Positions 20,025 through 36,435 of a DNA stretch of 64,000 bases are shown piece after piece. Under the pieces are notes generated by a model. It ran no database searches. It saw only the letters and a program-made list of their open reading frames with translations, and was not told the origin of the DNA. Numbering within the stretch: position 1 is the stretch's first letter; every line of letters begins with the position of its first letter. Source of the DNA: a virus; the IMG/VR virus record IMGVR_UViG_3300009370_000002, one strand, 5' to 3'. The translations under genes and the position numbers were made by a program.

Positions 20025-20650
20025 CAGTTTCTCAATATTTTGTTAAACAAGCCATCCAATATAATGCCTCTCTTCTCGTTGATTTTGTTTTCATACACTC
20101 TTGAGCCAACCGCTATGGTTTTTTCAGGATAAATATACGCATTTGGAGTTGAAGGTTCCGATACAATATCAAAGCAAATTAATTCAAAATCCTCTTGAAC
20201 AACTGTATTGCCGGCAACTTCGTTAACTGACCCAAGTCCCCGAGAAGATATTCCAAGCTTAATCCCAGAATTAATTAAGTCTTTTAAGATTCTTCCAGAT
20301 GGAGTGTCAAGAACCTTAATCTTACCCATGACATCATTCCCTTCCCACCACATGTCAGTAACAACATGAGATACATTTCTCAAGTTGATAACCGAGTCAT
20401 CAGGATGATCAAGTTCACCTAAAGCTCTGTTGTCCTTAATAACGTTCATGTAATTTTTGATTTCTTTTTGAAGAACCTTGCAAGGATATATTCTACCATT
20501 TCCGTTCTTCTTCTCACAAGTCTGGAGTCTACCAGACAAATAGAGGGCGCCATTTTCAACTTCCCTCTTTTCACGTTCGGTTAACAAATCTTGACAAATG
20601 CCATCTTTGCACAACTCGTAAAACTCTGTTAAAAGTTGCTTTACCGCCAT
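20024..20650 (-). CDS. Prohead core protein protease (T4 gp21 family)
   Basis: NGRIYP, ALGELDHPD, VSH, TPSGRILK, LGISSRGLGSV, FDIVSEPSTPNAY are gp21 signatures. Confidence 0.95.
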   Translation of the reverse strand: MAVKQLLTEFYELCKDGICQDLLTEREKREVENGALYLSGRLQTCEKKNGNGRIYPCKVLQKEIKNYMNVIKDNRALGELDHPDDSVINLRNVSHVVTDMWWEGNDVMGKIKVLDTPSGRILKDLINSGIKLGISSRGLGSVNEVAGNTVVQEDFELICFDIVSEPSTPNAYIYPEKTIAVGSRVYENKINEKRGIILDGLFNKILRN

Positions 20651-21102
20651 CTTCTTCTCCTCACGTACATCTGATTAACATCAACGCCGTGCGGTTGCCA
20701 GCTTTCAACATCTCCATTGGAATAATCAACATCAATTATTCCACTTTGCATTTTGGTTACATTTGTGATTTTAGGCAAACCTTCTATATCGGTACTCTCC
20801 GGATCCATGTCCCATGCGTTCTTCCATTTGGAATTAAGCATATAGAGACGGAAAAGCTCTCTACGCCCAAGGCTTAGTGACTGAAGATATTCATCTCTCA
20901 TGTTGTCGCGAATATAAGAATTGAGTAAATGCTTAACTGTCCCTGTCATAGGGGCACTTGACGCTACAGGCGCCTCGGGTGCAGTCTGCGGCTCAGCCAC
21001 GGCCTTGGGAGGCAAATCCATAGGCAGTTCCAATTGTGCATAATTTGCCTCTTTCATTACCTCTCTGACATATTGTTCCAATAGTTTTTTGGTTATCTTC
21101 AT
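20641..21102 (-). CDS. Hypothetical protein with shared N-terminal leader (MKITKKLLEQYVREVMKE)
   Basis: ORF track; coupled to neighbours; leader motif. Confidence 0.7.
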   Translation of the reverse strand: MKITKKLLEQYVREVMKEANYAQLELPMDLPPKAVAEPQTAPEAPVASSAPMTGTVKHLLNSYIRDNMRDEYLQSLSLGRRELFRLYMLNSKWKNAWDMDPESTDIEGLPKITNVTKMQSGIIDVDYSNGDVESWQPHGVDVNQMYVRRRRWR

Positions 21103-21407
21103 TGTTCCCGATTGCCTCTCATAGCCGCCTTTGCTGCTCTTATCTTATCCATAATTTTTGCGGCTTCAGATGCACCGAAAAGATTCGCTAGCTCTTCTTC
21201 TTGTCTTTTCAAATTTTGCTCTTCTCTTGGATCATCCACATAAGTACCCTCATCGGGATCACCAGCAGGAAGATTTCTTGGATCGGCCTCTCCTCTCCTC
21301 ATCCTTCCCATTCGTTTGTGGTGAACGTGGGCACCCATATCAAAATCATCCGATTCGGACAATACTTCACGAATCATTTTCATAAGTTGTTCAGTTGTTA
21401 ATTTCAT
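21099..21407 (-). CDS. Hypothetical protein with shared N-terminal leader (MKLTTEQLMKMIREVLSE)
   Basis: ORF track; leader motif; SD AGGA. Confidence 0.7.
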   Translation of the reverse strand: MKLTTEQLMKMIREVLSESDDFDMGAHVHHKRMGRMRRGEADPRNLPAGDPDEGTYVDDPREEQNLKRQEEELANLFGASEAAKIMDKIRAAKAAMRGNREQ

Positions 21408-21447
21408 TTTGTCAATTCCTATAAAATACCGGCGCTACCGGCGTGTG

Positions 21448-21501
21448 TCAACTTCCGCTACAGCAGCGTCGAACAGGTTGTAACATCCATTTCTTACTCA
21501 T
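21448..21501 (-). CDS. Candidate 17-aa micro-ORF MSKKWMLQPVRRCCSGS
   Basis: Hand-translated; AGGAG SD 6 nt upstream of the ATG; fills the gap between two genes; in frame with the upstream TAG. Confidence 0.5.
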   Translation of the reverse strand: MSKKWMLQPVRRCCSGS

Positions 21502-21510
21502 AATAAACTC

Positions 21511-21816
21511 CTAGTTGTAAAAAAGATTTATGCCTTCATCTCCAATAGCCATGGAAAGGCTATAAGAAGTTCCAGCAGATATAAAACCACAAATAAAGAA
21601 ATTCGCGATTGTATAGTCAAAAGTAAATAGTTCAGTGCCGCCATTTATCAAGAAAAGAAAGCAACCGACCCAAAAACCCATACAAAGAGGGCAGTGGAAT
21701 AACCAAGTCCACATTTTTTCAGGATTTTTCTCTGGCCTTATTGAGTGAAATATGCTGCCATAAACCAAAATAAAGGTAAGCCCAAAAGAGGCAAGCACAA
21801 AATAAAGTAATTCCAT
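21511..21816 (-). CDS. Small membrane protein with CxxC-x-GFW motif (DUF1360-like)
   Basis: Three hydrophobic segments, FHCPLCMGFWVG; start moved to ATG 21816 (GGAGA SD). Confidence 0.6.
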   Translation of the reverse strand: MELLYFVLASFGLTFILVYGSIFHSIRPEKNPEKMWTWLFHCPLCMGFWVGCFLFLINGGTELFTFDYTIANFFICGFISAGTSYSLSMAIGDEGINLFYN

Positions 21817-21855
21817 TAAATCTCCAATTTTTTTCGTCAAATACTATCAAATACA

Positions 21856-22422
21856 TCAATAGATGTATCTTCCATAAAGATAAGGGGCAAATAAACCATG
21901 CTGCTTGATGGAGCCCTTCTCCTCTTCATGTGGCACCTCACCAAGCTCAGTTGATTCTTCTTGGTCAGGATTTAATATCAAGTCTTCTATTGTATCATTA
22001 TAGCTATCATCCAAGAATGGCTTTTCTTCTATTAGCCATTTGCTTATTTCATACAATGCCATCTTGACTGAATCCACCTCTTTTGATTCGAGGAGGATTC
22101 CTTGTAATGAACCATACACATTTCCGCCTTCAATCGAGTCATACTGTACGATTCCTTTTTTTCTTAAATACTCAAATAATCTTTTCTCTGCGCCATAAAC
22201 CGAATCACACACAATATCTTTGGCAAAAGCCACAATCTTTTTCTTCTCAATCAAAACAATGATGTCGATTTCCTTATGGTCAAACACCATAATATCGCCA
22301 TTTAATGCTCTTCTCATATCGAGTTTGTACTCAACCACAGTGGTTTTCGGCCCAGAAATCTTAACTGTGATTGGTTCTGCTGTGGGTTGTAAGTTGCTTG
22401 ATATTTTCACGTTAATAGCCAT
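21856..22422 (-). CDS. Hypothetical protein in the head-assembly cluster
   Basis: 188-aa ORF, coupled, acidic C-terminus. Confidence 0.65.
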   Translation of the reverse strand: MAINVKISSNLQPTAEPITVKISGPKTTVVEYKLDMRRALNGDIMVFDHKEIDIIVLIEKKKIVAFAKDIVCDSVYGAEKRLFEYLRKKGIVQYDSIEGGNVYGSLQGILLESKEVDSVKMALYEISKWLIEEKPFLDDSYNDTIEDLILNPDQEESTELGEVPHEEEKGSIKQHGLFAPYLYGRYIY

Positions 22423-23234
22423 TATTTGTTTACCTCTGCAACCAAATCTTGGATATAAAAAATCTCTTTAACCACCTGTTCTGTAATTGGTGTGTTGGAG
22501 TAAGCGTCAAGTTGCTTTAAAACTTGCTTAGTTTTAGTCAAAAAAGACTCATTTTCAGTGATTTTTTGTTTATTGGTACACAAGTATACCTCAGCCTTAA
22601 GACGTGAAATTTCCTCGTTTATGAACGATTTAAGCCCTAGTCCATTATCGGAAAATGAGGTAATATAATTCATCAACAAATCTTTTTGTTCTTGCCTCAA
22701 GCTATTACCGTATGTTTGATTGAACTTCTTGGTGAATGTTTTGTAGGTGAGGTTATCAATATGATTCATTTCTTTATTTTTTCGCCTTTCTGAAGACATG
22801 AGTCCAACCAGGCGGCTCTCCACAAGAATGCGATTCTTTGCCTTAAGGCTTGAATTGAAGTATGCACCAACAGATGCAATGTCTTTATAGTTTGAAATAA
22901 AATTTGCAAAAGCAGAAGGGGACATTATTTCATTAATTTGCTTGATTAATTTTGTTTGCTGATTGAATATTGCTTTACGATTAAGGCTTTCAAAGTCCTT
23001 CTTCGTCTCAATAAGAAGTCGATGGGCAAATTCCGCCGACACTTTCTTACTCTCTAAGACAGATCGATAAATGTCCAAATCCTGCTTGAGTACAGAACCT
23101 TTCTTGAAATTTTCTTTAACGATGTTCATTATTTTTTGCTTTTTGTCTTGTTGGTTTCTGACGATTGCCTTTGTTAATTCTTTCATAAGACATTCGTAAA
23201 GAAAAGCGGTATTTCTTTTCTTATTGTGTTTCAT
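22422..23234 (-). CDS. Hypothetical basic helical protein next to the portal gene (MKHNKKRNTAFLYE...)
   Basis: Start moved to ATG 23234 with AGGAG SD; ACTATTTA copy at 23295..23302. Confidence 0.7.
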   Translation of the reverse strand: MKHNKKRNTAFLYECLMKELTKAIVRNQQDKKQKIMNIVKENFKKGSVLKQDLDIYRSVLESKKVSAEFAHRLLIETKKDFESLNRKAIFNQQTKLIKQINEIMSPSAFANFISNYKDIASVGAYFNSSLKAKNRILVESRLVGLMSSERRKNKEMNHIDNLTYKTFTKKFNQTYGNSLRQEQKDLLMNYITSFSDNGLGLKSFINEEISRLKAEVYLCTNKQKITENESFLTKTKQVLKQLDAYSNTPITEQVVKEIFYIQDLVAEVNK

Positions 23235-25134
23235 CCTGTGTCTCCTTTGATTTAAACAGACTCTCAACTAACTTGTTGATGTCGTGCTTTGTATTAAATA
23301 GTTTCTTTTCTTCGTTATCATGAGTCTCCATTATTCCACTTGCCATACTCTTTAGGCCGTCCTTACCACCATAGCCAGCCGGAAGAGATGCCCTTGGAGA
23401 AGAAGGTCTGCCAAACTCCCCAGCCGTCGCCACAGAAGAATAGTTTTGGCTTCTTCTGGATTTTCTCTTCTTTCCTGACATGTTGTATGGCCCTCTAGGA
23501 CTATCATCTCTCTTTGCTGGTGGCTCTGCTAAAAGAATGTCTTCTTCATCTCCACCGGTTTCCTCGGCTGGTTCCTCTCCACCCAAGTCACCACCTAAGT
23601 CACCTTCCAAATCACCACCAAGATCGCCGCCTAAGTCACCACCTAAGTCACCACCCAAATCTCCTCCTCCCTCTTCACCACCACCTTCTGCGGCACCTTC
23701 AAGTTTGGCTGTAAACTTTCTATCAAAGAACATTTCCCTTTGCATGCGAACAAACTCATCTTCTGATAGTCCTAGCAAATTTTCAGCAACCCATCGTTTG
23801 GAAAAGAATCCCTCCGTGGCTGAGCCTGCGATATCAAACTTTGCCTTCCAATGCTCTATTTCTTGAAGTTCGGCAATTTTGGATGGGTTATTGAGGCTGA
23901 GGCTAAATGAGAGCAAATCATCTCCTCTAAAGCCAAGCGTAAACAGGTGAACGATTCCTATCTTTTCCAATTCTGAAATCACCGCTCTTTGGAGTCTTTG
24001 GATTGTTCTGGCGAATCGAATATCTTTTTGAGCTAATGTTGTTTTGTCTTCTGTTGCTCCCTCGCCCATTGTCAAATAAGACTGCGGTATCTTAAGGGCT
24101 GAGAATAGTTTATCTCGTAGATACTTGACATCATCTACTTGTCCAGAATAGTCGCCACCTTTTAGTGACTCTATCTTCGTGTTGGAGGTTCCACCACGAA
24201 CTGGTATAAAATAATCCTCTTCTATTGATAATGGATTGTATCTCAAGTCAACTCTCCCTGTCTTTGGATCCACAACTTGGTGTCGTTTCATTTGAGTCAT
24301 TACCTTCTGCATGTATTGTTCAACGTCCTGTGGAGCGATAGAACCAACATCAACATAAAATGCTCGACGCTCTGGGGCACGAACAATTCGGTATGCCATC
24401 ATCGCATCCTCAAGGAGCGTTAGTTGCCTCCAAATCCGTCGAGCAGGCTCAAGCACTGAGGTACCATAGGGAACGTGTTTGTCATTTCCCATAATCCTAA
24501 AGTGTGCTACCTGCCAGTTTTCCAACGTTAGGGCTGCGCTGTTCCACTGAAACTGTACATAATTGGGATTTGATTCATCTTCGCCCTCCATTCGCTCAAC
24601 TTCTTGCGGAGGCAAGCCAATTGCGCTCCGAATGCCTGCGTCATCGTCAATATCCAAATACAAAAAGAAATCTCCATACTTACACATTGTTCTACACCAA
24701 CCAAACAAGTTGTGTTCAATGTTCATCACATCATGATATAATGCATGCAAGATTGTTTTTATTTCATCATTTGAACACTTTATCTTTAGCATATCGTGCA
24801 AGGCTGAATGTGTTGTCATCTCATCAGCATATATATCAAGGGACGAATTGATTTCGGGGGTGAACTCCATTTGATCAAAATCAACATAACGCTCAGAACG
24901 ATTTCTATTAGATATCATATTGATAGTGGTTACGTTCATTGGGTTGTATTCTGATTTTTTGAATTGTTTCCCGGAAGCTGACTTAAATCTTTTAGCATAT
25001 GTGTCCAAATGTCTTCGTTTTATTTGTCTACCTGACTGCGTTCGACGCTGGGTTATTGGTCCGGAAAAAAGCCTTGTTAACGCTCTGAATAATCCAGACT
25101 CCTCATTATACGGGTTTTTATTGTTTTTAGCCAT
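23221..25134 (-). CDS. Portal vertex protein (T4 gp20 family)
   Basis: PYGTSVLEPARRIWRQLTLLEDAMMAYRIVRAPERRAFYVDVG, EEDYFIPVRGG, DDVKYLRDKLFSALKIP are gp20 motifs. Confidence 0.95.
   Translation of the reverse strand: MAKNNKNPYNEESGLFRALTRLFSGPITQRRTQSGRQIKRRHLDTYAKRFKSASGKQFKKSEYNPMNVTTINMISNRNRSERYVDFDQMEFTPEINSSLDIYADEMTTHSALHDMLKIKCSNDEIKTILHALYHDVMNIEHNLFGWCRTMCKYGDFFLYLDIDDDAGIRSAIGLPPQEVERMEGEDESNPNYVQFQWNSAALTLENWQVAHFRIMGNDKHVPYGTSVLEPARRIWRQLTLLEDAMMAYRIVRAPERRAFYVDVGSIAPQDVEQYMQKVMTQMKRHQVVDPKTGRVDLRYNPLSIEEDYFIPVRGGTSNTKIESLKGGDYSGQVDDVKYLRDKLFSALKIPQSYLTMGEGATEDKTTLAQKDIRFARTIQRLQRAVISELEKIGIVHLFTLGFRGDDLLSFSLSLNNPSKIAELQEIEHWKAKFDIAGSATEGFFSKRWVAENLLGLSEDEFVRMQREMFFDRKFTAKLEGAAEGGGEEGGGDLGGDLGGDLGGDLGGDLEGDLGGDLGGEEPAEETGGDEEDILLAEPPAKRDDSPRGPYNMSGKKRKSRRSQNYSSVATAGEFGRPSSPRASLPAGYGGKDGLKSMASGIMETHDNEEKKLFNTKHDINKLVESLFKSKETQDETQ
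23578..23670. repeat. Degenerate 12-bp tandem repeat encoding (GGDL)n in the portal C-terminus
   Basis: About seven GGDL/EGDL units with synonymous variation. Confidence 0.85.
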
Positions 25135-25142
25135 AATTTATC

Positions 25143-26726
25143 TTATCCTTTGTAAATCCACATAAATTCTTTGATTTGTTCTATTTGTTCTTCATACTTC
25201 TGATTATGCGTTTGAGTATATCCACTCATGCCTTTTATAGCAGTATTCATGACACTATCACTCTTATACATAGAATTTAACATCGCTTTTTTGTATTCTA
25301 TGTCTCTTTTATTAACGTGCATAGCCGTATCCCTCACCCAGCAAGCAATTGCCAAAGCCATTACTAAGTCATCATTATAAGAGCGCATTGCTTGCGGTTT
25401 ACCATTATGCCAAATGAAAGTTTTAAGCTCATGGTATATTCTTGTTGAATATGTTTTAATCATTTTGTTTCTTATAAACTCTTCAAGTTTGGCAACAATC
25501 AGTGGTCGTGTTTTAATCGAGGTTGTGAACCCTGCAACTGCATTTGTCATTGCTTCTCCTTGGTATGCCTCTACATACTCATGAGTTGATTTTATGGAAT
25601 AATACAAGTTAGAATAACCCAAGGTAGTCAACTTCTCTAATATTGAAATACCAATGCCATTATTCTCAACTACCAATAAACAATTTCCAAACTCCGTTCC
25701 CGCTGAAAATAGCATTTGAGAATACATATCCAAATTTGGCTTACCTTGATATTCGGCTACAACTTCCATAGATTCCAGTTTAATAACGTGAAAAACAGAA
25801 TTATCTGCACCGTCTCCTCTAGCCACATCTGCGACAAGTAAGTATGTATTGCCCTCATTATACTTCTCCCACATCCACATGTTTCTATCATACCCGACTC
25901 GATATTCGGGCTCTCTAGCGTTTGAATTAATCCAAGCTAAATCCTCGGGATGAATTACAGTATCTCCAGAAGTGTTGAAGTTACAAAGCAATTCCTGAGC
26001 TATTTGCCTTTTGGACATATTTTTGGTTTCTTTTTCAAACCACCCTTTATCTCTCTCTGGGTGTACATCCCACATCAGCTTTATTGGGTTAAATTCATTC
26101 TCGGCATCCACAGCCCCTATATATGTCTTGTGAAACCAATTCCCTGTGCCTTTTGGTGTTGAAAGTGCAATGCAGCGGCCGCCTGTTGCTAAAGTGGAGT
26201 AAATCGCAGTCCAAATATCATCCATCTTCTCAACATGTGCAGCTTCGTCTACAACCAACAAAGACAATGCTTCTGAGCGGCCAGCATCCTCTGAGGTGGG
26301 TACTGCCTTAATTATTGAACCGTTTGACAATTCAAATGATGTTCTGTTATCAACAGAAATCTGAGCAACCTTCATCCAATCTGGTAGATTTTTCATCATA
26401 CTCTTCACTTTCTTAACAAGATTGGCTGCTGTGCTGAATTTTGTTGCAAGAACAACGATGCTTTTTTCTTTGTGAAAGAGCATAAACCAAACACAATAAG
26501 CAGCAGTGATTGTTGAAATTCCAAGTTGTCTTGCTTTCAGTATTATATTGAAACGAAAATCATTATAGTCATTAAGCAAATCATCTTGATAAGGATAAGT
26601 CTTAAAGCCTATTAGCCCTCTCATGGGATGACTTATACGACAATAGTTGTTAATAAAGTATTGCGAATTCTTACCAGACTTAACAATTTCCTTTACTATT
26701 TCCTTTTTGGTTAAACGGAATGCCAT
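25143..26726 (-). CDS. Terminase large subunit (T4 gp17-like)
   Basis: Walker A LKARQLGIST, Walker B LLVVDEAAH, coupling motif STPKG, nuclease ADVARGDGAD and YNDDLVMA. Confidence 0.96.
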   Translation of the reverse strand: MAFRLTKKEIVKEIVKSGKNSQYFINNYCRISHPMRGLIGFKTYPYQDDLLNDYNDFRFNIILKARQLGISTITAAYCVWFMLFHKEKSIVVLATKFSTAANLVKKVKSMMKNLPDWMKVAQISVDNRTSFELSNGSIIKAVPTSEDAGRSEALSLLVVDEAAHVEKMDDIWTAIYSTLATGGRCIALSTPKGTGNWFHKTYIGAVDAENEFNPIKLMWDVHPERDKGWFEKETKNMSKRQIAQELLCNFNTSGDTVIHPEDLAWINSNAREPEYRVGYDRNMWMWEKYNEGNTYLLVADVARGDGADNSVFHVIKLESMEVVAEYQGKPNLDMYSQMLFSAGTEFGNCLLVVENNGIGISILEKLTTLGYSNLYYSIKSTHEYVEAYQGEAMTNAVAGFTTSIKTRPLIVAKLEEFIRNKMIKTYSTRIYHELKTFIWHNGKPQAMRSYNDDLVMALAIACWVRDTAMHVNKRDIEYKKAMLNSMYKSDSVMNTAIKGMSGYTQTHNQKYEEQIEQIKEFMWIYKG

Positions 26727-26732
26727 TAAACA

Positions 26733-27284
26733 TTAGCCCTTTTTCCTTGTATCGTTTTGAGGGCGCTTGTTCTTATTGTCTAAATCTAAGAATTTCCGCC
26801 ATGAATCTTCGATATTTCTGTTCTCAGAGCCTCCAGCATCAGGGTCAGCCTTAACGCCCGAAATATTGAAATACTGATGTGCTTGAACAAAGTTGCGAAC
26901 TCTCGAAACAGAAGAAGCCAAAATGTGAATATCCCCTTCTTTTGTGAGGGTTACACCTTTTCCGGTGATAACTTTGTATTCTTTCTGAAGAAACTTTTTA
27001 ATCTCGTTTATCATTCGAGCCATCTCATCCTCAAAGCCGCCACCATATATTTCTTTTAACATGATATCTGCTTGATAATGAATACAAAGCTGACTTCCAG
27101 CAAATTTGACACTAAAACCATCATTGATTCTCTTATCAATAAGGGCATCGCCCTCTTCTCTTTTCAAGCCAACCTTACGAATTTTGCCATCATGAGAAAA
27201 TCTTTCGTCATGAGCGCCGTCATATCCATTGGCAGCAGCCTGTGCTATTCCTTGGATTATTTCCAAAATATTTGATTCAGCCAT
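26733..27284 (-). CDS. Hypothetical protein
   Basis: 183-aa ORF coupled to neighbours. Confidence 0.65.
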   Translation of the reverse strand: MAESNILEIIQGIAQAAANGYDGAHDERFSHDGKIRKVGLKREEGDALIDKRINDGFSVKFAGSQLCIHYQADIMLKEIYGGGFEDEMARMINEIKKFLQKEYKVITGKGVTLTKEGDIHILASSVSRVRNFVQAHQYFNISGVKADPDAGGSENRNIEDSWRKFLDLDNKNKRPQNDTRKKG

Positions 27285-27669
27285 TGTTGGGTCTCCATCC
27301 TAATGTCCATCGTTTCTCTCTGCCTTCTACCCATTGTATATAGCACTTAAAGCAACAATCAAACTTAGACATATAAACATCATCTTTTGACTTAAATGAG
27401 TACGTACTACACACAGGACAAGAACGCTTTGATTCTTTTGTAAGTAGTTTCTTGGATATGAAAACTCCATTTACCTCCTCTTCTGAAGACTCTTGCTCTA
27501 TTTGATGAGAGTGAAGTGTTTTCAAATCATTAAGATATTTTTTTTCTTTATCGTCTGACCATTCGCTTTTTGGGTGTTGGACTGTTTCGTTTCCGTATTT
27601 TTCCACTATTGCATTTTCAACCTTAATAGCATAATTGGGATCTTTACTTTTCACTCCTACTCCTATCAA
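27277..27669 (-). CDS. Hypothetical protein with C-terminal Cys cluster (possible zinc finger)
   Basis: CPVC...CCFKC. Confidence 0.65.
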   Translation of the reverse strand: MIGVGVKSKDPNYAIKVENAIVEKYGNETVQHPKSEWSDDKEKKYLNDLKTLHSHQIEQESSEEEVNGVFISKKLLTKESKRSCPVCSTYSFKSKDDVYMSKFDCCFKCYIQWVEGREKRWTLGWRPNNG

Positions 27670-27929
27670 CCAGCAGCCTGAATGGCGGCTTTGATTACTT
27701 TATCAACTGCGCCTGCTAGTGTTTCATCTCCAGCGGCTTTTGCAATTTCTATTGCCTTTTTCAATATGATATCGTTTATTTGACTGCCAACCTCTTCGGC
27801 TGCATCTCCTGCTTTATCTCCAATGTCACCAAAATCAACAGCGGCTTCTTCTTCTGCAAGTGTTATCTCATTATACAAATCAACTTCTTCTTTAATAATC
27901 TGCTTTAATCTTTGTTCTGTTATTTTCAT
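27666..27929 (-). CDS. Hypothetical protein with shared N-terminal leader (MKITEQRLKQIIKEEVD)
   Basis: ORF track; leader motif; SD GGAG. Confidence 0.7.
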   Translation of the reverse strand: MKITEQRLKQIIKEEVDLYNEITLAEEEAAVDFGDIGDKAGDAAEEVGSQINDIILKKAIEIAKAAGDETLAGAVDKVIKAAIQAAG

Positions 27930-27941
27930 TTTCTGTCTCCT

Positions 27942-28346
27942 TTATTTTACAGCATGCATGATTCCAATTGATGTCAACACACCAGCAACAAAGCCACCTG
28001 CTAACCAAAAACCATCTTTACTTGGTTTAATTAGTTTCTTAAGTTGTTCATTCTCATCTTTCTTTATTGTAATCATATCATTCAGCCTCTGATCGTCAGC
28101 TTCACACCTTGCCTCTAATAAATCGTATTTATGCTTTTCTTCAGCTTTGGCTCTGCCTTTGTGGTACTCTATCTCAATGGTGCATTGTTGTGCTTTGTAG
28201 CGGTTCTCCACTATAAGCTTAGATACAGCCTCTGAATTAAATAGTCTTCCATCGAAGGGTGCTTTTTGGCCCTTCTTTAAGACAACAAATTCTGGCTCTG
28301 CTCCATATGCAACAGGAAAAGCCAGTAACAATAACATTAAAATCAT
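27942..28346 (-). CDS. Exported protein with signal peptide, coiled coil and C-terminal TM segment (spanin-like topology)
   Basis: MILMLLLLAFPVAYGA signal; GFWLAGGFVAGVLTSIGIMHAVK C-terminal hydrophobic segment. Confidence 0.55.
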   Translation of the reverse strand: MILMLLLLAFPVAYGAEPEFVVLKKGQKAPFDGRLFNSEAVSKLIVENRYKAQQCTIEIEYHKGRAKAEEKHKYDLLEARCEADDQRLNDMITIKKDENEQLKKLIKPSKDGFWLAGGFVAGVLTSIGIMHAVK

Positions 28347-28353
28347 TTTTACC

Positions 28354-28599
28354 TCACTGAATATTTTTGGTTGATTGGTTAATCTCTAATGTAAAATCTT
28401 TTCTGAGTTTGATTAGTGGATTAAAGTTTGCCTTCTTTCTTTCCAAGACAAGTGCTCCTTGGGGCTTTACCAATTCACCCTCAAGCTCTAGGGCTTCAAA
28501 ATCAATTTCTGTCTTATCCTTATAAACAACTTTTGGCTCATCGTTTGCAATGGAATATGGGCTGTACGCCAAGAGGGCTATAATAAAGCACTTTTTCAT
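28354..28599 (-). CDS. cglF: Secreted protein resembling adventurous gliding motility protein CglF/GltF
   Basis: Signal peptide, then VVYKDKTEIDF...LEGELVKPQG..VLERKKANFNPLIKLRKDF..E...S..N, closely following the CglF/GltF pattern as I recall it (KKTxIDF-x(4)-EGELTKPEG-x(4)-RK-x(2)-F-x(2)-LIKxRxxF); 81 aa. Confidence 0.72.
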   Translation of the reverse strand: MKKCFIIALLAYSPYSIANDEPKVVYKDKTEIDFEALELEGELVKPQGALVLERKKANFNPLIKLRKDFTLEINQSTKNIQ

Positions 28600-29396
28600 T
28601 GTTCTTGCCTCATAGCTGCCATTTGTTCTCTGATTGCATCAATCAATTGTTCTTCCATCGTTGGGTCTTGAACATCTACGCTTCCAGTATCTCCTTTGCC
28701 CCACACGGCATCTCTATCAGGCGAGGGGCTTTCTCTTTCTGCTTCTAACGATTTATAAGTTACTGGTGGAAGTCTGCTTGTCGGGCCGGACTTATCAGTC
28801 TTTACCATGTTGCCTCTTCTATCTATTGCCCAGTCTCCAACATAAACCCAGTTTTTGCCTATGGAGCCTCCCATAGCATCATGGCCCTTTACCTTGCCAT
28901 GTATATAGCCATATGGTGAAACATAAGCTTCATATTCTCTCCAACTGTCAAGGGATTTATCTCGCATGAAATTAGCAATTTCCCTGGTTGATGAAATTTT
29001 CCTAGATGGAAGATTCTCTTCGGGATATCCTTTCATGATTATTTCCACTGTTGAGCGAGGAGGATCATCATCAGGTAATGAACCCTCCCTTTCATAAGGA
29101 TTCCAAGTTGCCATCTTGTGGCCTGCTCGGGCGTTATCATATACAGCTTGCTTCATATACTCTTCTTTTGTCATCGCCAATCTCTTGTGGGACTTTTCGC
29201 TTGCTGCATCCCATTCTTTCCCGGCAGAGACAGCTATCTGATATGCGGTAGACTTCGGATCAAGTTTTTCCCACCACTTAGCCTCATTTAAAAGTTGAAA
29301 GAAATCAATCTTACTCCAAGGCAATTTGCTTTCAACAACTGCTCTAATTCTTTCTTCTGTCATTATTTTCTTGAGCAATTCGTTTGAAACTTTCAT
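28596..29396 (-). CDS. Hypothetical protein with leader variant (MKVSNELLKKIMTEE)
   Basis: 266-aa ORF; ATGA-coupled at both ends; ends with LIDAIREQ. Confidence 0.7.
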   Translation of the reverse strand: MKVSNELLKKIMTEERIRAVVESKLPWSKIDFFQLLNEAKWWEKLDPKSTAYQIAVSAGKEWDAASEKSHKRLAMTKEEYMKQAVYDNARAGHKMATWNPYEREGSLPDDDPPRSTVEIIMKGYPEENLPSRKISSTREIANFMRDKSLDSWREYEAYVSPYGYIHGKVKGHDAMGGSIGKNWVYVGDWAIDRRGNMVKTDKSGPTSRLPPVTYKSLEAERESPSPDRDAVWGKGDTGSVDVQDPTMEEQLIDAIREQMAAMRQEQ

Positions 29397-29566
29397 TTAC
29401 TCTTTCTCCTTATAAGCTTGTTTGTTTTGGCAATCTCGGAGTGAAGCTCGCTAATTTCTTGTTCTATATTATCCAATCGCATCTGAGTTGTATAATAGAA
29501 GCCACCAAGTATTGCGATTACACTTCCAACTGTTAATGCTGTTTTGATATCAATTTCTGTTTTCAT
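29393..29566 (-). CDS. 57-aa single-TM plus coiled-coil protein (not in the ORF track)
   Basis: Hand translation MKTEIDIKTALTVGSVIAILGGFYYTTQMRLDNIEQEISELHSEIAKTNKLIRRKSK; ATGA overlaps at both ends. Confidence 0.75.
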   Translation of the reverse strand: MKTEIDIKTALTVGSVIAILGGFYYTTQMRLDNIEQEISELHSEIAKTNKLIRRKSK

Positions 29567-29964
29567 CCTTTTTGAATTCCCAATTCTTGTTCTAAAATCC
29601 TATCTATCTCTTCGGGGCTGTGTTTTGCTTTTTGTACCATTTTCTTGATTGCCTCTTTTTGGCTGTGGGTTGTGTTCCACTTGTCTTCTTCATACTTCTC
29701 TTCAATTTTCTTAACCGCTTCAGAGTATCTTTTGTTTGCTTCTTCTCTTTTCTTAATCTCAAGCTCATGCGCTCTCTCAATTGCCTCTTTCTCTTTCTTG
29801 TACTGCTCTTTGGCTAGATTCGCCTGAAGTTTGATGCTACCTGCGCTCCTTCTGCCTAACGTATAAGCAATAACAAAGATAGTTAATAATACTAACCAGC
29901 GCCAATGCTGCCGACAGAAGACACCAGCTATCTTAAGATATTTAAGCGCAGCTAACCAAGTCAC
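29563..29964 (-). CDS. N-terminal TM plus long coiled coil (i-spanin/Rz-like topology)
   Basis: WRWLVLLTIFVIAYTLG then a charged heptad region. Confidence 0.5.
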   Translation of the reverse strand: MTWLAALKYLKIAGVFCRQHWRWLVLLTIFVIAYTLGRRSAGSIKLQANLAKEQYKKEKEAIERAHELEIKKREEANKRYSEAVKKIEEKYEEDKWNTTHSQKEAIKKMVQKAKHSPEEIDRILEQELGIQKG

Positions 29965-31010
29965 ACCCTTGCACCTCTTGCAGCAGCAACCTTCTTTAAG
30001 TCTTCAACCAAGCCAGCGGCTCCACGTTGCTGTTGCCAAGATACCAAATCACCAGTGTTTGCTCGATAACCATCGCCCATGCCAGCATAAGACATCCATT
30101 CACCCCATTGCCTTGCGGCATCTGGGCCTGCGGCTCCTGCTGTATACATCTTGTCGAGTTCAATCATCATGCCGCTCTCAGTCATTCCAGAGAGTTTAAG
30201 ATTCTCAACGATTGACCAAACATCAGTGTCCATCTCCAATACTTCACTGATACCCTCTTCTACCGGGCTACCATACATGTGTGCAGACATGGCTTCATAC
30301 TCTCTACACGCTTTTTCATCACCAGCATCACATTTTGCTTTCATGTCCATTAGGTAATCTTCTTCTCGGGACTGCTCTTGAACCTTCCCAAATTCCTCTC
30401 TTATCATCTGCTTGAGTTGTTCTGAGGTTATGTTCAGCGACTCTTGAAAGCCAAAGAAGCCGGGCTTCTTGGCGTATTGCCCAGCAGCAGTTTTACTTTG
30501 TATCCAATCCATCGTAGATTCAAATTTGCCTTTTTTCCAATCACTTTTGAAATCCTGCATCAACTTTGCAGTTAGTGATTCTGGGCGGTATTTACCAAAA
30601 TCCATTGCACCACCTTCGGCACCAGACTTCAAAAACTTCAACAAATCTGCTTCAGCTTGGGCCTCCAATTTCCTACTATAAGGCACTGAATAGTCTCGTT
30701 CTGGTGCTTTTCTTTTACCGCTGTCTTGAGCTTTGTCAAGCATTTGTCTCATATCTTCTTCTTCGTCTGCTTTGAAAACACCTGATGCGATAGCGTTGGT
30801 ATAAGCCTTTATTATAGCAGCCTTGTCACCAGAATCTCTTGCGAGTGTAATTTTAGCTCTTTGTCTTGATTTCTCAGCTTGCTCTTCTCGGTTAAATTTA
30901 TCCAACTCGGAAGGGACAACATCATCATGTCGCCCACGAGTTTGGAAGTCCATGTCTCCACGGATTGATTCTCTAATCAGTTGCCTAAGTTGTTTGGTTG
31001 TTAATTTCAT
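29961..31010 (-). CDS. Hypothetical protein with shared leader (MKLTTKQLRQLIRES) and an internal second copy
   Basis: Internal LNITSEQLKQMIREEF. Confidence 0.7.
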   Translation of the reverse strand: MKLTTKQLRQLIRESIRGDMDFQTRGRHDDVVPSELDKFNREEQAEKSRQRAKITLARDSGDKAAIIKAYTNAIASGVFKADEEEDMRQMLDKAQDSGKRKAPERDYSVPYSRKLEAQAEADLLKFLKSGAEGGAMDFGKYRPESLTAKLMQDFKSDWKKGKFESTMDWIQSKTAAGQYAKKPGFFGFQESLNITSEQLKQMIREEFGKVQEQSREEDYLMDMKAKCDAGDEKACREYEAMSAHMYGSPVEEGISEVLEMDTDVWSIVENLKLSGMTESGMMIELDKMYTAGAAGPDAARQWGEWMSYAGMGDGYRANTGDLVSWQQQRGAAGLVEDLKKVAAARGARV

Positions 31011-31014
31011 CAGC

Positions 31015-31377
31015 TTATTCCTCCATGTGAGATGCCATTTGGCGTAATGATTCTTGGCTATTGTTTGAAGCTGAAAGGCGCATACCTTTTTGCCTATAAC
31101 CTTGTGCCTTTAGTGCTTCTATTACCTCACCCAAGTCTCCGCCGCCCATACCACTAGGGTAGTATTGTGAGCCGCGACTTTGTTCTGGTTCGATAATTCC
31201 GATGACGCCATTGTTATAATCATACTGTCCAAAACTCTGTGGTTTTCCAGAAACGCCACCGACAACTCCATATCTAAAGTCATACTTCATCATCTTATCA
31301 ACGTCCTGCGCTCTGCCCATCATTTCGTTGAGTTCTTCTTTAATAATCTGTTTAAGTTGTTTTTGTGTCAATTTCAT
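31015..31377 (-). CDS. Hypothetical protein with shared leader (MKLTQKQLKQIIKEELNE)
   Basis: Start moved to ATG 31377. Confidence 0.7.
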   Translation of the reverse strand: MKLTQKQLKQIIKEELNEMMGRAQDVDKMMKYDFRYGVVGGVSGKPQSFGQYDYNNGVIGIIEPEQSRGSQYYPSGMGGGDLGEVIEALKAQGYRQKGMRLSASNNSQESLRQMASHMEE

Positions 31378-31655
31378 CACATTTGCCCTCCATTTTTCCA
31401 AACTTTAACCATATCGATGACAGATTGTCCACCGACATAAATCATCGCAATCAAGCCCCATGTGTCTGGGTCCAAGTCTGCCCAGACAAGAAGTCCAGTT
31501 GCAACCAAGAACACGAACAGCTTTCGTGAAATTGCCTTTGAAAGGATAACGTCCATTACCCCAACCTTGTTAACTAAGTCTACGGCTTCACAGCCGGTGC
31601 AGTCTTGCACATCACAATGTGCCTCTTCTACTTCAACATCATTTTGTTCGCTCAT
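31377..31655 (-). CDS. Putative holin-like membrane protein
   Basis: SRKLFVFLVATGLLVW and WGLIAMIYVGGQSVIDMVK, two TM segments; Cys/His-containing acidic N-terminus. Confidence 0.5.
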   Translation of the reverse strand: MSEQNDVEVEEAHCDVQDCTGCEAVDLVNKVGVMDVILSKAISRKLFVFLVATGLLVWADLDPDTWGLIAMIYVGGQSVIDMVKVWKNGGQM

Positions 31656-31936
31656 TATTTATTCCTCTTTTTTGATTCTTGCATCATTCCGCCCATGGCC
31701 ATTTCCAAAGCTTGCATGATACTTCCTTCCCTTGGGGGTTGGATGTTTTTCGCAGCTTGTGAGCTATCAAGAAGCTGTTTAAACTCAGCAGCAAGTTGTT
31801 GGATAGCTTGTTGATCAAAACCTTGTGCGGCTCTGTGGGTGTGTCCTGTCCATGTCTCATGCCCTTCACCAATAGAGTGCTTCAATTCTTCTTTGATAAT
31901 CTCTTTCAGTTGTTCTGCTGTTAACTTCATCGGCAT
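31655..31936 (-). CDS. Hypothetical protein with shared leader (MKLTAEQLKEIIKEELKH)
   Basis: SD AAGGAG; leader motif. Confidence 0.7.
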   Translation of the reverse strand: MPMKLTAEQLKEIIKEELKHSIGEGHETWTGHTHRAAQGFDQQAIQQLAAEFKQLLDSSQAAKNIQPPREGSIMQALEMAMGGMMQESKKRNK

Positions 31937-31941
31937 TCTCC

Positions 31942-34900
31942 TTATACATTTACCTTTGCGTAACCATCGACTTTGTCTATGTCGATTGTCATGTCCACAA
32001 CGTCCTTCAAAGAGTCAAGATGAGAGATTAATATTACAGTCTTGAATTGATTCTTAATGATTCGTAAAAGATTTGTAAAACCTTCCATATGTTCTTGGTC
32101 TAAAGCCGTAGCAGGTTCATCAAGTATAAATAGTTCGCTTTTTGGCAAATTTGTTATTGAAATCAAAGCTAAACGTATTGCCATCGATGCAAGTGTCTTT
32201 TCTGCTCCTGAGCCCATTGATAGTGGGCGAGGATCATAGTATGGGTGCTTGATGTTTATATCGAGCTTATCACCGCTTGATTCAAAGAACACTTCAAACT
32301 CCACAATATTGCTGAGTATCTTTGCTATCTCTTCATTAAGAAGAGGGAGCTTTTGCTTAATGATGTTGTAGGGTATGCCGTTAGGATGCATACACTGCAT
32401 AAATAAGTCATATGCAACCCACTCTTCCTCGATAGTCTCAAGCTCTTTCTTGTTTGCCTGTAGTGACTTGAGGGTTGCTTGTGCTGCTCCTTGTTCGACA
32501 AGAAACTTGGTTATCTTATCTTGACACTTATCGTATTGTTCCTTCTTCTGTCTTACTGTTTTTTCTATAGCGGTTCGTTCTCGAATTAAAGTCCCAAGAT
32601 TTTCGATAGCCTCTCGGTTGTCTTCATACTCTTCTACCTTGGCATCAAGTTCAGCAATTTCATTAACCAACAGTTTAACTTTGTTTTGGTTTGAAGTGAG
32701 AGTTAGGCTCCTTGTCTCAATCAGTCTTTGAGCCTTCTCAATCTGAACTTGATAATCATGATACTCAGTCATCCTGATATCGACAGTTTGTATGTCTAGG
32801 GCGTCGAAATCGCTTATTAAATCAGCTTTCATGCTCTCAAGGTGCCCTAGCCTAGCTTTAACATTTGGAAGCGATTTTTCGGCGTTTTTGGCGTCCTTAA
32901 CAAACTTGTTATCAGAGCAGTATTTACAATTCGGATCATACTTGTGGTTGTGAAGCATGTTGATTTTGTCCACCAAGTTGTTGCGGTCTTGCAACAGCGT
33001 AGATGCTGTATCTCTAATCCTGGCTATGTCGTTCTTTATTTCGTTTGCCTCTTCCTTAATGGAGAGCAAATCCTCCATGTCAATCTTCTTGACATTTTCT
33101 TGACAACTTTCTAATGACTCCTTCGCAGATTGTATTTCTGCTTCAATATTTGTGTTGTTTTGCAAGAGCATTGTGCGGCTTCTTGATTTTTGATTTATTG
33201 TCTTATTGACACCATCTATATCAATTATTTCAGCAGGTATGCTATCAATCTTATTGACAACTTCAGATAACTCCTGTAGAAGCTCTTCTTTGCGAACTTG
33301 CATGATGGAACAAATATTTCTTTGTTTCTCAATATCTTCAGCTACCTCTTCAAGAATTTCAACATTCTTTTGAATCTCCTTATCCCAAGGCTTCTCATTT
33401 AGCTTTTTAATAAGCCCTTTCATTTCTGCTGCATCTTTTTTGGCAAGCTTAAACTTCTTATCAAACACTTGCAAATCAAGAAACTTCGCAAGAATCTCTT
33501 TGCGCTTTGTCACGCCCTCTTTAACAAAGGAGAGAGAGTCAAGCTGGGATGACATGGATGTCAATAAGAAATCCTCCATTGTCCCAAACCGTTTGCGGAT
33601 ATTAGCATCCGTTTGATTTCTGGTTGTGCCATTCATACTTTCATCTTCGGAAATTAGCGAAAAGTCTAAATCGACTTTTGCCTCGATGGTTTCCTTTCCT
33701 CGCAATCGCTTTTTGTATTTCTCAAGGTTGCGGCATACTTGGTACGTCTTATCTCCGATATCAATTTGAACTTTACCCTTGGCTCTCTCTCGATTTTGGT
33801 TAATTACGTGGACGTTTTTCCTTTCACCTTTTGATGTTGAATTAAACAACGTGAATAAGAGGCTATCAATAATGCTAGACTTTCCGGAGTAATTACGGCC
33901 GAAGATTCCAACAAGTCCTCTGAGGTTTTCGAAGTTGACACTGTTTTTTTCACTATAGTTGAACAGGTTGTCCCATTCGAGCTTTTTGATTTTCCAAATA
34001 ACATTTCTTGATATCTCCTCGCCTTGTTCGGCTAAAATGTTATACTTTTTATTGTATTCGAGTACTTTGTCTATTACGGAGGTTTGAAGCTCCATTTCCG
34101 ATAAGTAGTCACGTATATGCTTTTCTTGCACAGATATATTTCTTAAGTTTTCTGAAATAACACTATTGGCATAATTTCCATCATCATGATGAGAGTGGGA
34201 CTCCTTCCCATTAAGAGTTGTAACCGAAAACGGATTCCATCTTGCTTCAGCAATTGCTCTTGCCTTTCTAAGCTTATCTGACGGGAGATTCGTTCTTGAT
34301 ACTATTCTTAAGCGGCAGTTCCTAGGGGCATGGGCGTCATCAGGGAATGATCCATCCTTATTAAGCCTGACGGTGATGAATGGCCTGGGATTAGATATAT
34401 GAACACTCTTGACATTAAAATCATCTTTGTTCTGTATCTTCCACAAAAGGTAGCCCTTTTGGGGAGACTCTGAAAACTTCTGTTGAATTGTGGAACCACA
34501 ATACCGAACTCTACCCTCAGTGTCTAACGATTGTTGTCTGTGGATGTCGCCGAGCATTGTGTAATCAAAATCTCTGAAAATTGAAATATCATCGTCTCCA
34601 ACATCCATTGTCCAATTCGCCCCTGTCTTAGAGCCTGCTATTGCTCCATGATAAAGAGCAACATTAACTTTGTGCGCCTGTGTTGGCTTTATCCAGTTGC
34701 CTCTGTCAAAGATTGACAACACGTTGAGACACAAACCATCATCAATGTGAATTTCACCAGAGTCCTTCATAAGGTGAAGCCTAGGGTGATTTAGTGCATT
34801 AACTATTGGCGTAAGGGCATCCTGCCTACTGTCGTTCTTAAGGTTGCCATCATGGTTTCCGAGAATGACATATGTCGGAGCTATGTTTGCCAAAGACGAC

Positions 34901-35094
34901 AAAAACTCAGCGCAAAGTTGAAAGTACTCTGGGCTGAGTTGTGTTTTTGTGTGGGCGATGTCGCCGCAATGAACAATGCAATCAGGTTGCTCTGCTACTA
35001 AGGACTCATACAAATTGCGAAATGCAATTCTGTATTCATCGTGATATTTCAAATTGCGAATATGAGTATCCGCCAAGTGTGCTATTGTATACAT
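31942..35094 (-). CDS. Fused Mre11/SbcD nuclease - Rad50/SbcC ATPase (T4 gp47-gp46-like)
   Basis: Metallophosphoesterase motifs ADTH, GD, GNHD, GDIH; Walker A GRNYSGKSS; zinc hook CKYC; signature MGSGAE; Walker B ILDEP; H-loop LISH. Confidence 0.93.
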   Translation of the reverse strand: MYTIAHLADTHIRNLKYHDEYRIAFRNLYESLVAEQPDCIVHCGDIAHTKTQLSPEYFQLCAEFLSSLANIAPTYVILGNHDGNLKNDSRQDALTPIVNALNHPRLHLMKDSGEIHIDDGLCLNVLSIFDRGNWIKPTQAHKVNVALYHGAIAGSKTGANWTMDVGDDDISIFRDFDYTMLGDIHRQQSLDTEGRVRYCGSTIQQKFSESPQKGYLLWKIQNKDDFNVKSVHISNPRPFITVRLNKDGSFPDDAHAPRNCRLRIVSRTNLPSDKLRKARAIAEARWNPFSVTTLNGKESHSHHDDGNYANSVISENLRNISVQEKHIRDYLSEMELQTSVIDKVLEYNKKYNILAEQGEEISRNVIWKIKKLEWDNLFNYSEKNSVNFENLRGLVGIFGRNYSGKSSIIDSLLFTLFNSTSKGERKNVHVINQNRERAKGKVQIDIGDKTYQVCRNLEKYKKRLRGKETIEAKVDLDFSLISEDESMNGTTRNQTDANIRKRFGTMEDFLLTSMSSQLDSLSFVKEGVTKRKEILAKFLDLQVFDKKFKLAKKDAAEMKGLIKKLNEKPWDKEIQKNVEILEEVAEDIEKQRNICSIMQVRKEELLQELSEVVNKIDSIPAEIIDIDGVNKTINQKSRSRTMLLQNNTNIEAEIQSAKESLESCQENVKKIDMEDLLSIKEEANEIKNDIARIRDTASTLLQDRNNLVDKINMLHNHKYDPNCKYCSDNKFVKDAKNAEKSLPNVKARLGHLESMKADLISDFDALDIQTVDIRMTEYHDYQVQIEKAQRLIETRSLTLTSNQNKVKLLVNEIAELDAKVEEYEDNREAIENLGTLIRERTAIEKTVRQKKEQYDKCQDKITKFLVEQGAAQATLKSLQANKKELETIEEEWVAYDLFMQCMHPNGIPYNIIKQKLPLLNEEIAKILSNIVEFEVFFESSGDKLDINIKHPYYDPRPLSMGSGAEKTLASMAIRLALISITNLPKSELFILDEPATALDQEHMEGFTNLLRIIKNQFKTVILISHLDSLKDVVDMTIDIDKVDGYAKVNV

Positions 35095-35282
35095 TAATCC
35101 TCCGGGTTAAGTTTCTTTTCCATCATGTTCATGGTTCGCTTTATTATTGGAAGCGCGCCCTTAAGAACATGATAGTGCTCTTCATTATCCAATATCGCCA
35201 TCGTCATCATTATTATCTGGCGATATATGCCTTTCAGTTTCATATAGTCTCGTTCCAAGTACTCTTTGTCTTTATTCATCAT
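35094..35282 (-). CDS. Hypothetical protein (62 aa)
   Basis: Coupled ORF. Confidence 0.55.
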   Translation of the reverse strand: MMNKDKEYLERDYMKLKGIYRQIIMMTMAILDNEEHYHVLKGALPIIKRTMNMMEKKLNPED

Positions 35283-35500
35283 GCCTCCCTGAAGATTCTT
35301 ATATAACCTTCCATTGTTGTTATGCCACCAACATGGTAGCCCAAATCATATTGGTTGATTATCTTTGATACAATCGTTTTTAATCGGCTTGAGTTGCCTG
35401 TTATAATTTTCATTTCCTTACCCCAATTGGTATTGATAAACTTATGGCATTTGTGTGGTACGTCTTCATATCTCACGCCATGTAAGTCCAATTCATTCAC
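35279..35500 (-). CDS. Stand-alone Smr-domain protein
   Basis: ELDLHG...IITG motif pair typical of Smr domains; 73 aa. Confidence 0.7.
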   Translation of the reverse strand: MNELDLHGVRYEDVPHKCHKFINTNWGKEMKIITGNSSRLKTIVSKIINQYDLGYHVGGITTMEGYIRIFREA

Positions 35501-36435
35501 ATTATTCTCCTTAGCTCATCCATCAAGAAATAGTCATCATGGTCAATTGCTTGAGCCATCTGTTTTCGAGACAAAAAAGTACGTAGCGGCATTTCGGCGA
35601 TGTCCTCAAAGCCACTCGTATCAATCTTATAGAGTTCTATATCATAGTATAACATATTTTTGATGATTTGTCCAGTCTTTTTTTCAGCATCTTTGTCAAA
35701 TGCCATGTAGACTGGTGTATCGTTGAGGGCAATAGCTTGGAATAGTTTTGTCTTGTCTCGGAGAGTTGAGCCCAGAACGGGGATAGCGTTTTCCCCAGCC
35801 GCTATGGCATCAAAAACGCCTTCTACGAGAGTGATGGGCTCATCCCAGTCTACGTGGAGTTCGTTGAAAATAATGTCCTTCTCAGCCGGGGGGTTGAGGT
35901 ATCTCCACTTATGTCCAACATAGGAACGAGCGATGAAATAATTCACATCTCCGTTGTTATTGAAGGAGGGGATGATGATCCTGCCTCCATATCTACCCTC
36001 TGCACAATAGCCAATCTTCCATCGGAGAATCTCCTTCTTTGTGATGTCTCTGCTCTTGAGATAATCGAGAGCTTTCTTGGATGAACGAGGCAGATGTTTG
36101 TTGCAGAGCGAGATAAACTCCTCGGGGAGAGGAACCGTCTGTTCTTCCTCTATGTTATTGATTTCATTGAAGATTTCGTCAAACTCTGATAAGTCGAGTC
36201 TACCTTCAAGTTCAAGCCACTTCTGTCTCTGCTGGTATGATCCGAATTTGCGAACGATACGATAAGCGTTCTTGCCTCGCCTGTCGCAAACCCAACAATG
36301 CCAACCTCGCTTGAGATTGATTGCAAGCTTCTTCTTGTGATGATTGCAATACGGACAATGATAGTAGAGTTCTCCACCTTGAGGGGTGTTGGGCCTTCCA
36401 AGAATGTCCGATAATATTCTAATCTTTTGTTCCAT
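35497..36435 (-). CDS. DNA primase (DnaG/gp61-like)
   Basis: Zinc finger CPYCNHH...HCWVC; RIIIPS; TOPRIM EGVFDAI and FDKDA. Confidence 0.92.
   Translation of the reverse strand: MEQKIRILSDILGRPNTPQGGELYYHCPYCNHHKKKLAINLKRGWHCWVCDRRGKNAYRIVRKFGSYQQRQKWLELEGRLDLSEFDEIFNEINNIEEEQTVPLPEEFISLCNKHLPRSSKKALDYLKSRDITKKEILRWKIGYCAEGRYGGRIIIPSFNNNGDVNYFIARSYVGHKWRYLNPPAEKDIIFNELHVDWDEPITLVEGVFDAIAAGENAIPVLGSTLRDKTKLFQAIALNDTPVYMAFDKDAEKKTGQIIKNMLYYDIELYKIDTSGFEDIAEMPLRTFLSRKQMAQAIDHDDYFLMDELRRIM

What the first reader, a model, noticed from the sequence alone, without database searches (positions are those of the whole stretch)
28354..28599. Phage-encoded homologue of the myxobacterial gliding-motility protein CglF/GltF
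Seen: an 81-aa ORF with a signal peptide and mature region PKVVYKDKTEIDFEALELEGELVKPQGALVLERKKANFNPLIKLRKDFTLEINQSTKNIQ, ATGA-coupled to the upstream gene in a cluster of membrane and exported proteins. Established: CglF/GltF is a small exported component of the Agl-Glt gliding machinery of Myxococcus and related predatory bacteria. The pattern match is from memory. Inference: the host may be a Myxococcota- or Bdellovibrionota-like glider, and the phage copy could act as a decoy that jams or remodels the outer-membrane gliding complex (superinfection exclusion if that complex is the receptor, or motility control during infection). I know of no described phage gliding-gene mimic.
Basis: partly seen in the sequence, partly recalled or inferred. 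Interest (0 to 1): 0.85.

Follow-up and report, generated by a model that had tools for sequence, protein, structure and literature searches.

The report
Phage copy of gliding linker GltF
A large uncultured marine phage, like many other large aquatic phages, carries an intact, exported copy of GltF, the small periplasmic linker of the myxobacterial gliding-type envelope machine; this points to one uncultured Myxococcota class as host and suggests the phage supplies or re-tunes that machine late in infection.

Summary
The ORF is real but on the minus strand (28354-28599, 81 aa). It matches CglF/GltF (NF033764, E 1e-13, 51 bits; cut-off 90, which true operon copies of the same lineage also miss at 53-59 bits). 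Its mature part is 67% identical to gltF in a gltC-D-E-F-G-cglE operon of a Myxococcota MAG. The window is a T4-like phage (assembly contig 195 kb). Homologues lie in at least 84 IMG/VR loci, none beside other glt genes. The gene is under strong purifying selection (dN/dS 0.015-0.06) and keeps 32 of 39 host-invariant residues, including both predicted docking ends. All viral copies group with one uncultured Myxococcota class (97/94 support) and are scattered through it, so capture was probably repeated. A candidate late-promoter motif suggests late expression. Best reading: a working periplasmic linker that keeps or re-tunes the host Glt machine (0.45); a jamming decoy is second (0.25). I found no paper on it, but this scan reported the same gene before on other phage DNA.

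The parts
28354..28599 (-). gltF/cglF homologue, 81 aa
   Evidence: NF033764 E 1.2e-13; 42/63 mature residues identical to operon gltF of Myxococcota MAG GCA_036131855.1
28546..28599 (-). predicted Sec signal peptide, residues 1-18
   Evidence: basic N-end, hydrophobic core, conserved Ala18; evolves much faster than the mature part; inference, no SignalP run
28465..28518 (-). residues 28-45, equivalent of the GltF strand predicted to pair with the GltG TonB-like C-terminal domain
   Evidence: mapped by C-terminal offset from PMC11761067, colinear HMM match; T30, I32, F34, G41 invariant in hosts and phages. Binding is inferred
28360..28392 (-). C-terminal helix, residues 70-80, equivalent of the helix predicted to insert in the GltC crevice
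   Evidence: AF2 model helix 70-80, otherwise extended; E72 and S76 kept; PMC11761067
32127..32134 (-). candidate late-promoter motif ACTATTTA heading the run of abutting genes that contains gltF
   Evidence: 11 copies on the coding strand against 1 on the other, several just upstream of head and neck genes; gene gaps of -4 to +4 down to gltF; function inferred
29563..29964 (-). conserved neighbour, 133 aa, one transmembrane segment plus coiled coil, weakly Rz-spanin-like
   Evidence: PHROG 1327 E 0.002; directly upstream of gltF in relative L007
29393..29566 (-). neighbour, 57 aa, one transmembrane segment plus coiled coil
   Evidence: weak PHROG spanin/holin hits E 0.004-0.02
27942..28346 (-). 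conserved downstream neighbour, 134 aa, hydrophobic N- and C-ends, virus-only family of unknown function
31377..31655 (-). conserved small membrane protein, 92 aa (holin-like only by shape)
   Evidence: no family hit; 66-71% identical in relatives; hydrophobic segment

Best explanation
The phage captured gltF from its host, a member of one uncultured Myxococcota class, and keeps it as a working part. Shown: homology, phage location, intact mature sequence, purifying selection, grouping with that class. Inferred: the protein is made late, exported by Sec, and in the periplasm docks like host GltF, one strand on the TonB-like C-terminal domain of GltG and the C-terminal helix in GltC. It would replace a small, unfolded and probably short-lived linker after host expression is shut off. 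The proton-driven inner-to-outer-membrane Glt machine would keep working, or be re-tuned, in the infected cell (movement, feeding or envelope coupling) while a 200-kb phage assembles. The logic is that of cyanophage psbA. My odds: true GltF 0.97; host in this class 0.85; acts on the host Glt machine 0.8; as a working copy 0.45.
For: HMM match. Operon copies 58% identical overall, 67% in the mature part. 32 of 39 positions at least 90% conserved in hosts are identical and the other 7 are mostly conservative. dN/dS 0.015 against L001 and 0.06 against L117. Both predicted docking ends are kept across viral copies, whereas a blocker needs only one. Viral plus class sequences form one starred branch, 97/94; viral copies were never one clade in 200 bootstrap trees; AU p 0.031 and 0.060. 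One copy per genome and no GltG C-terminal domain in five large phage records, so partners must be the host's. Candidate late motif within 110 nt upstream in 10 of 35 dereplicated viral loci against 1.4 expected, 0 of 21 cellular loci. Two natural proteins fuse a GltF-like motif to an AgmX/PglI (GltG-type) C-terminal domain. The same phages carry exported MIDAS-type proteins of a family that is multicopy in this class.
Against: No expression data and no test of binding. The docking model is itself only an AlphaFold prediction (PMC11761067). Excess of an intact two-ended linker can also uncouple a complex, so intactness does not exclude jamming. It is not shown that this class glides: its operon order resembles the nfs paralogue cluster, so the machine may do something else. 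Fast turnover of GltF is inferred; the only hint is processing of a GltF-mCherry fusion (PMC3169522). The phage bS21 gives only weak, inconclusive support for the host. The tree rests on 61 columns.
Confidence: 0.45

Rival explanations
1. Jamming decoy. Overproduced phage GltF occupies GltG and GltC separately and uncouples the motor from the outer-membrane complex. This stops gliding, saves proton motive force, or disables a Glt-dependent entry route (superinfection exclusion).
For: Intact binding ends and probable strong late expression fit titration. Only one small part of the machine is carried. Phage inhibitors of type IV pili are a precedent (own knowledge). A few lineage-specific changes exist, such as G36A, D53E and V77T.
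Against: No viral copy seen has lost either docking end, though one end would be enough to block. GltF is periplasmic, not a surface receptor (PMC11761067, PMC4488436). A late-type motif fits exclusion poorly. No evidence that Glt is a phage receptor.
Confidence: 0.25
2. Lysis helper. The protein loosens inner-to-outer-membrane Glt bridges at lysis, working with neighbouring spanin-like and holin-like genes.
For: In this phage group it sits among conserved small membrane genes, two with weak Rz/holin PHROG hits, in a probable late unit.
Against: The hits are weak (E 0.002-0.07). Most other phage groups carry gltF in unrelated neighbourhoods.
Confidence: 0.12
3. It is a general docking peptide for GltG/AgmX-type C-terminal domains and acts on a non-motility envelope system of the host (uptake, secretion, or positioning of the phage's own MIDAS lipoproteins).
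For: The GltF motif recurs inside large secreted proteins and VIT-vWA proteins. Genomes of the class often hold 2-5 paralogues. All five phage records carry MIDAS-type exported proteins.
Against: The phage protein is far closer to the operon gltF (36-42 of 63) than to the adjacent paralogue (24 of 63).
Confidence: 0.12
4. Neutral recent capture, or a bacterial fragment misassembled into the contig.
For: None beyond the gene's cellular origin.
Against: GC 0.37 and GC3 0.38 match phage genes, not host gltF (GC3 0.65-0.92). Six independent contigs carry it in the same place. It is syntenic in relatives with saturated synonymous sites.
Confidence: 0.01

Closest known systems
GltF = CglF of Myxococcus xanthus (MXAN_4868; NCBIfam NF033764)
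   Same: Small exported protein; colinear match over the mature region; extended with a C-terminal helix in the AF2 model, as described for GltF (PMC11761067).
   Different: Encoded by a phage, alone, without gltE or gltG; 51 bits, under the 90-bit equivalog cut-off; nearest relatives are in an uncultured class, not Myxococcia; function untested.
Operon gltF of an uncultured Myxococcota class (MAGs GCA_036131855.1, GCA_040384145.1, GCA_020632755.1)
   Same: 57-67% identical in the mature part; same starred clade.
   Different: Host copies lie in OMP-OMP-gltC-gltD-gltE-gltF-gltG-cglE operons with high GC3; phage copies have phage codon usage and often a late-type motif upstream.
NfsF and other GltF paralogues (spore-coat Nfs machine)
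   Same: Same family; GltA-H are paralogues of NfsA-H (PMC4488436), so the family does not imply gliding.
   Different: Not tested which of the two machines the host operon behaves like.
Cyanophage psbA and other host-maintenance auxiliary genes (own knowledge)
   Same: Intact, selected copy of one host subunit, captured more than once.
   Different: Here the target is an envelope force-transducing machine, not metabolism; the benefit is unshown.
Phage inhibitors of type IV pili and periplasmic exclusion proteins such as Tip, Aqs1, Cor, Llp (own knowledge)
   Same: Small phage proteins acting on a host surface machine.
   Different: Those are not full-length homologues of a host subunit.

Membership tests
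CglF/GltF (NF033764) | Significant profile match over the mature region | tested here: met
   E 1.2e-13, residues 17-80 on profile 25-88
CglF/GltF (NF033764) | Score at or above the curated equivalog cut-off of 90 bits | tested here: not met
   50.8 bits. True operon copies of the nearest class score 53-59, so the cut-off excludes that lineage too: homologue of the family, not the NCBI equivalog
CglF/GltF (NF033764) | Closest cellular homologues are gltF genes between gltE and gltG | tested here: met
   L029, L036, L205, L206, L207
CglF/GltF (NF033764) | Cleavable signal peptide, periplasmic location | tested here: inconclusive
   Shape and conserved Ala18 fit; no predictor or experiment
CglF/GltF (NF033764) | Largely unfolded alone, with a C-terminal helix | tested here: met
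   AF2: pTM 0.24, no strands, helix 70-80
CglF/GltF (NF033764) | Encoded in a glt operon | tested here: not met
   No GltD, E, G or CglE near any viral copy; no GltG C-terminal domain in five phage records
CglF/GltF (NF033764) | Binds GltG C-terminal domain and GltC | not testable with these tools
CglF/GltF (NF033764) | Supports A-motility | not testable with these tools
   Needs complementation
Phage auxiliary (host-derived) gene | Flanked by phage hallmark genes | tested here: met
   Terminase, portal, prohead protease, major capsid, primase in the window
Phage auxiliary (host-derived) gene | Kept in related phages under purifying selection | tested here: met
Phage auxiliary (host-derived) gene | Expressed during infection | not testable with these tools
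Superinfection-exclusion protein | Blocks adsorption or DNA entry of related phage | not testable with these tools
   No cultured phage carries the gene

The most novel reading that the evidence does not exclude
Several lineages of large aquatic phages have repeatedly captured the same single linker of the Glt envelope machine, together with MIDAS-type surface proteins, to control movement or surface adhesion of infected predatory Myxococcota. This would be a phage-encoded working part of a bacterial motility machine, and a marker gene that ties hundreds of orphan large phages to one uncultured class.
Probability: 0.5. Interest if true: 0.8.

Novelty: new variant of a known kind. Interest (0 to 1): 0.64.

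Why it matters
Few phages of Myxococcota are known, and I found no paper on a phage-borne gliding gene (most subscription journals are not searched). The gene gives a host marker for a widespread set of roughly 185-317 kb marine and freshwater phages. Repeated capture of GltF alone singles it out as the limiting or regulatory part of the Glt machine. That makes the predicted GltG-GltF-GltC bridge testable in M. xanthus with natural variants. If the working-copy reading holds, viruses keep a predator's envelope motor running during infection, which extends auxiliary genes from metabolism to cell mechanics.

Tried and rejected
Complex prediction of phage GltF with the GltG C-terminal domain: tool busy three times, then unavailable; nothing was folded. 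Folding a natural GltF-motif plus C-terminal-domain fusion (P0554 tail): the domain folded, the motif stayed under pLDDT 50 with only two rows covering it; no verdict (a first alignment was misaligned and dropped). No whole genome held for the window. No Pfam, PHROG or PDB match. No match in 50,697 GenBank phages or in PLSDB. Bdellovibrionota as host rejected for lack of support. bS21 as a second host marker: 3 of 4 weak hits were in the class, inconclusive. Naming the class: the tool withholds names and accession searches found nothing; UBA796 or UBA9042 are guesses from memory. MYXO-CTERM search on metagenome contigs not possible. Sigma-70 promoter and terminator scan: no excess over shuffles. 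No tmRNA in relative G125, one tRNA-Arg, so an earlier agent's tmRNA argument could not be checked here. Pathak and Wall 2012 was not held.

Full report
Observation. The ORF lies on the minus strand, 28599 to 28354, 81 aa; the plus strand is closed. Its ATG overlaps the stop of a 266-aa ORF as ATGA. The N-terminus looks like a Sec signal peptide ending at Ala18, which is conserved in at least 90% of homologues. The window is a T4-like phage: large terminase, portal, prohead protease, major capsid protein, primase and a bS21 gene. The protein is recorded on a 195-kb contig and sits in the same place on six ENA and Logan contigs. GC and GC3 of the gene (0.37, 0.38) match the phage, not host gltF genes (GC3 0.65-0.92).

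Identity. NCBIfam NF033764 (CglF) matches residues 17-80 at E 1.2e-13, 50.8 bits, under the 90-bit cut-off. Pfam, PHROGs and PDB give nothing. The nearest cellular homologues lie between gltE and gltG. In MAG GCA_036131855.1, which NCBI labels Myxococcota, the order is two myxobacterial OMP barrels, gltC, a gltD-like TPR gene, gltE, gltF, gltG, cglE. Its GltF is 42/63 identical to the mature phage protein. These true operon copies score 53-59 bits, so missing the cut-off reflects distance from Myxococcus, not decay.

Spread in phages. A profile scan found 84 IMG/VR stretches and at least 490 in metagenome contigs. None of the IMG/VR loci has GltD, GltE, GltG or CglE within the 6-8 kb fetched. 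Close relatives keep the gene upstream of the terminase. Other large phages carry it in quite different neighbourhoods. Four records rated at least 90% complete (185-317 kb) and one partial record each have one copy and no GltG C-terminal domain. No cultured phage has it.

Selection. In the mature part dN/dS is 0.015 against L001 and 0.06 against L117; synonymous sites are saturated in most other pairs while dN stays at 0.1-0.27. Of 39 positions at least 90% conserved in cellular copies, 32 are identical in this phage; the rest are mostly conservative. The signal peptide evolves much faster.

Host. One operon-bearing MAG is a held species genome, G130. In its class, 172 of 182 genomes match the phage protein. 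In an even sample of the phylum, the 18 class genomes with a match all outrank every other genome, though the margin at the bottom is small, 55 against 53 bits; the profile search shows the same split. In a rooted tree, viral and class sequences form one branch at 97/94 apart from the best hits of other classes. Viral copies are scattered inside it: never one clade in 200 bootstrap trees, at least five changes forced by starred branches. AU tests of viral monophyly gave p 0.031 and 0.060. With 61 columns this is moderate evidence for repeated capture. I could not name the class. The Bdellovibrionota hit is a phage-like contig in a MAG whose phylum otherwise lacks a match. bS21 adds little.

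What GltF does. In M. xanthus gltF is needed for gliding and for GltD clusters at focal adhesions, and was found only in Myxococcales and Bdellovibrionales (PMC3169522). An AlphaFold model has GltF unfolded alone, with one strand on the TonB-like C-terminal domain of GltG and the C-terminal helix in a GltC crevice (PMC11761067). By C-terminal offset these map to phage residues 28-45 and about 67-81. My model of the phage protein is extended with a helix at 70-80. Two natural proteins join a GltF-like motif to an AgmX/PglI C-terminal domain, which fits that pairing. GltA-H are also paralogues of the spore-coat NfsA-H proteins (PMC4488436), so gliding in the host is not established.

Timing. ACTATTTA occurs 11 times on the coding strand of the window and once on the other, often just before head and neck genes. 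One copy at 32134 heads the run of abutting genes that includes gltF. In other phage groups a CTAWTTA motif lies within 110 nt of the gltF start in 10 of 35 dereplicated loci against 1.4 expected, and in 0 of 21 cellular loci. These loci are not fully independent. I infer late expression; the motif's role as a promoter is untested.

Company. Relative G125 and the other four records encode exported MIDAS-type proteins, weakly like CglD and the Bdellovibrio MIDAS adhesin, some with choice-of-anchor D domains. The family has 3-34 copies in all 41 class genomes sampled; at E 1e-11 it matches 9 of 9 class genomes and 9 of 42 others. This agrees with the host assignment but is not specific.

Mechanism. 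A blocker needs one binding face, yet viral copies keep both, under strong selection, after several captures. I therefore favour a working linker that keeps or re-tunes the host machine late in infection (0.45).

Novelty. Searches of the held literature found no phage-borne glt gene, and a 2026 survey of myxobacterial viruses does not mention one in its main text (10.64898/2026.09.14.751636). This scan had already reported the gene on other phage DNA; those notes agree but are not independent evidence. I class it as a new variant of a known kind, a host-derived phage gene aimed at a new type of target. Interest 0.64.

Noticed in passing
window 20641-40464, minus strand: Many unrelated ORFs start with the same short leader (MK-hydrophobic-T...L-K-x-I-I-x-E-E type), also common in other gltF-bearing phages; possibly a capsid-targeting signal.
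   Followed up: no
window 19381-19587 (-): Phage-encoded ribosomal protein bS21 (TIGR00030 E 8e-12) beside the prohead protease gene; only weak matches to Myxococcota bS21.
   Followed up: partly
L195:16507-17427 and L202:14937-16538 (relative G125); also G126-G129: Exported MIDAS-type proteins, one with choice-of-anchor D domains and a weak CglD match (E 2e-9), present in all five gltF-bearing phage records tested.
   Followed up: partly
P0254 residues 466-633; P0554 = L289:5001-7400: Natural VIT-vWA proteins ending in a GltF-like motif followed by an AgmX/PglI C-terminal domain.
   Followed up: partly
P0216, P0219, P0240, P0316; L286, L287: Large secreted proteins (970-1400 aa) without Pfam hits that carry an internal near-complete GltF motif.
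   Followed up: partly
L207:5185-5442; L029:3116-3343; L142:108-320: A second, diverged gltF-like gene sits directly upstream of gltF in many operons of the class.
   Followed up: no
window minus strand 2307, 5276, 6303, 9455, 12344, 21631, 23302, 28245, 32134, 40450, 44264: Strand-biased ACTATTTA motif upstream of structural genes, a candidate late promoter that reads as the reverse complement of the T4-type late consensus; 21 against 2 in G125.
   Followed up: partly
L026 (JBBAUR010000108.1): A phage-like 8.9-kb contig with gltF is binned in a Bdellovibrionota MAG, probably in error.
   Followed up: partly
window 36419-39064 (-): Run of short genes starting MK(I/V)GDLV, a family of paralogous small proteins also seen in the relatives.
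   Followed up: no
L196:13027-14046; L203:15536-16288; L032:2299-3389: Other host-like genes in gltF-bearing phages: a glutamine-synthetase-like ORF (by eye), an exported trypsin-like protease, and SAM decarboxylase plus spermidine synthase directly after gltF.
   Followed up: no
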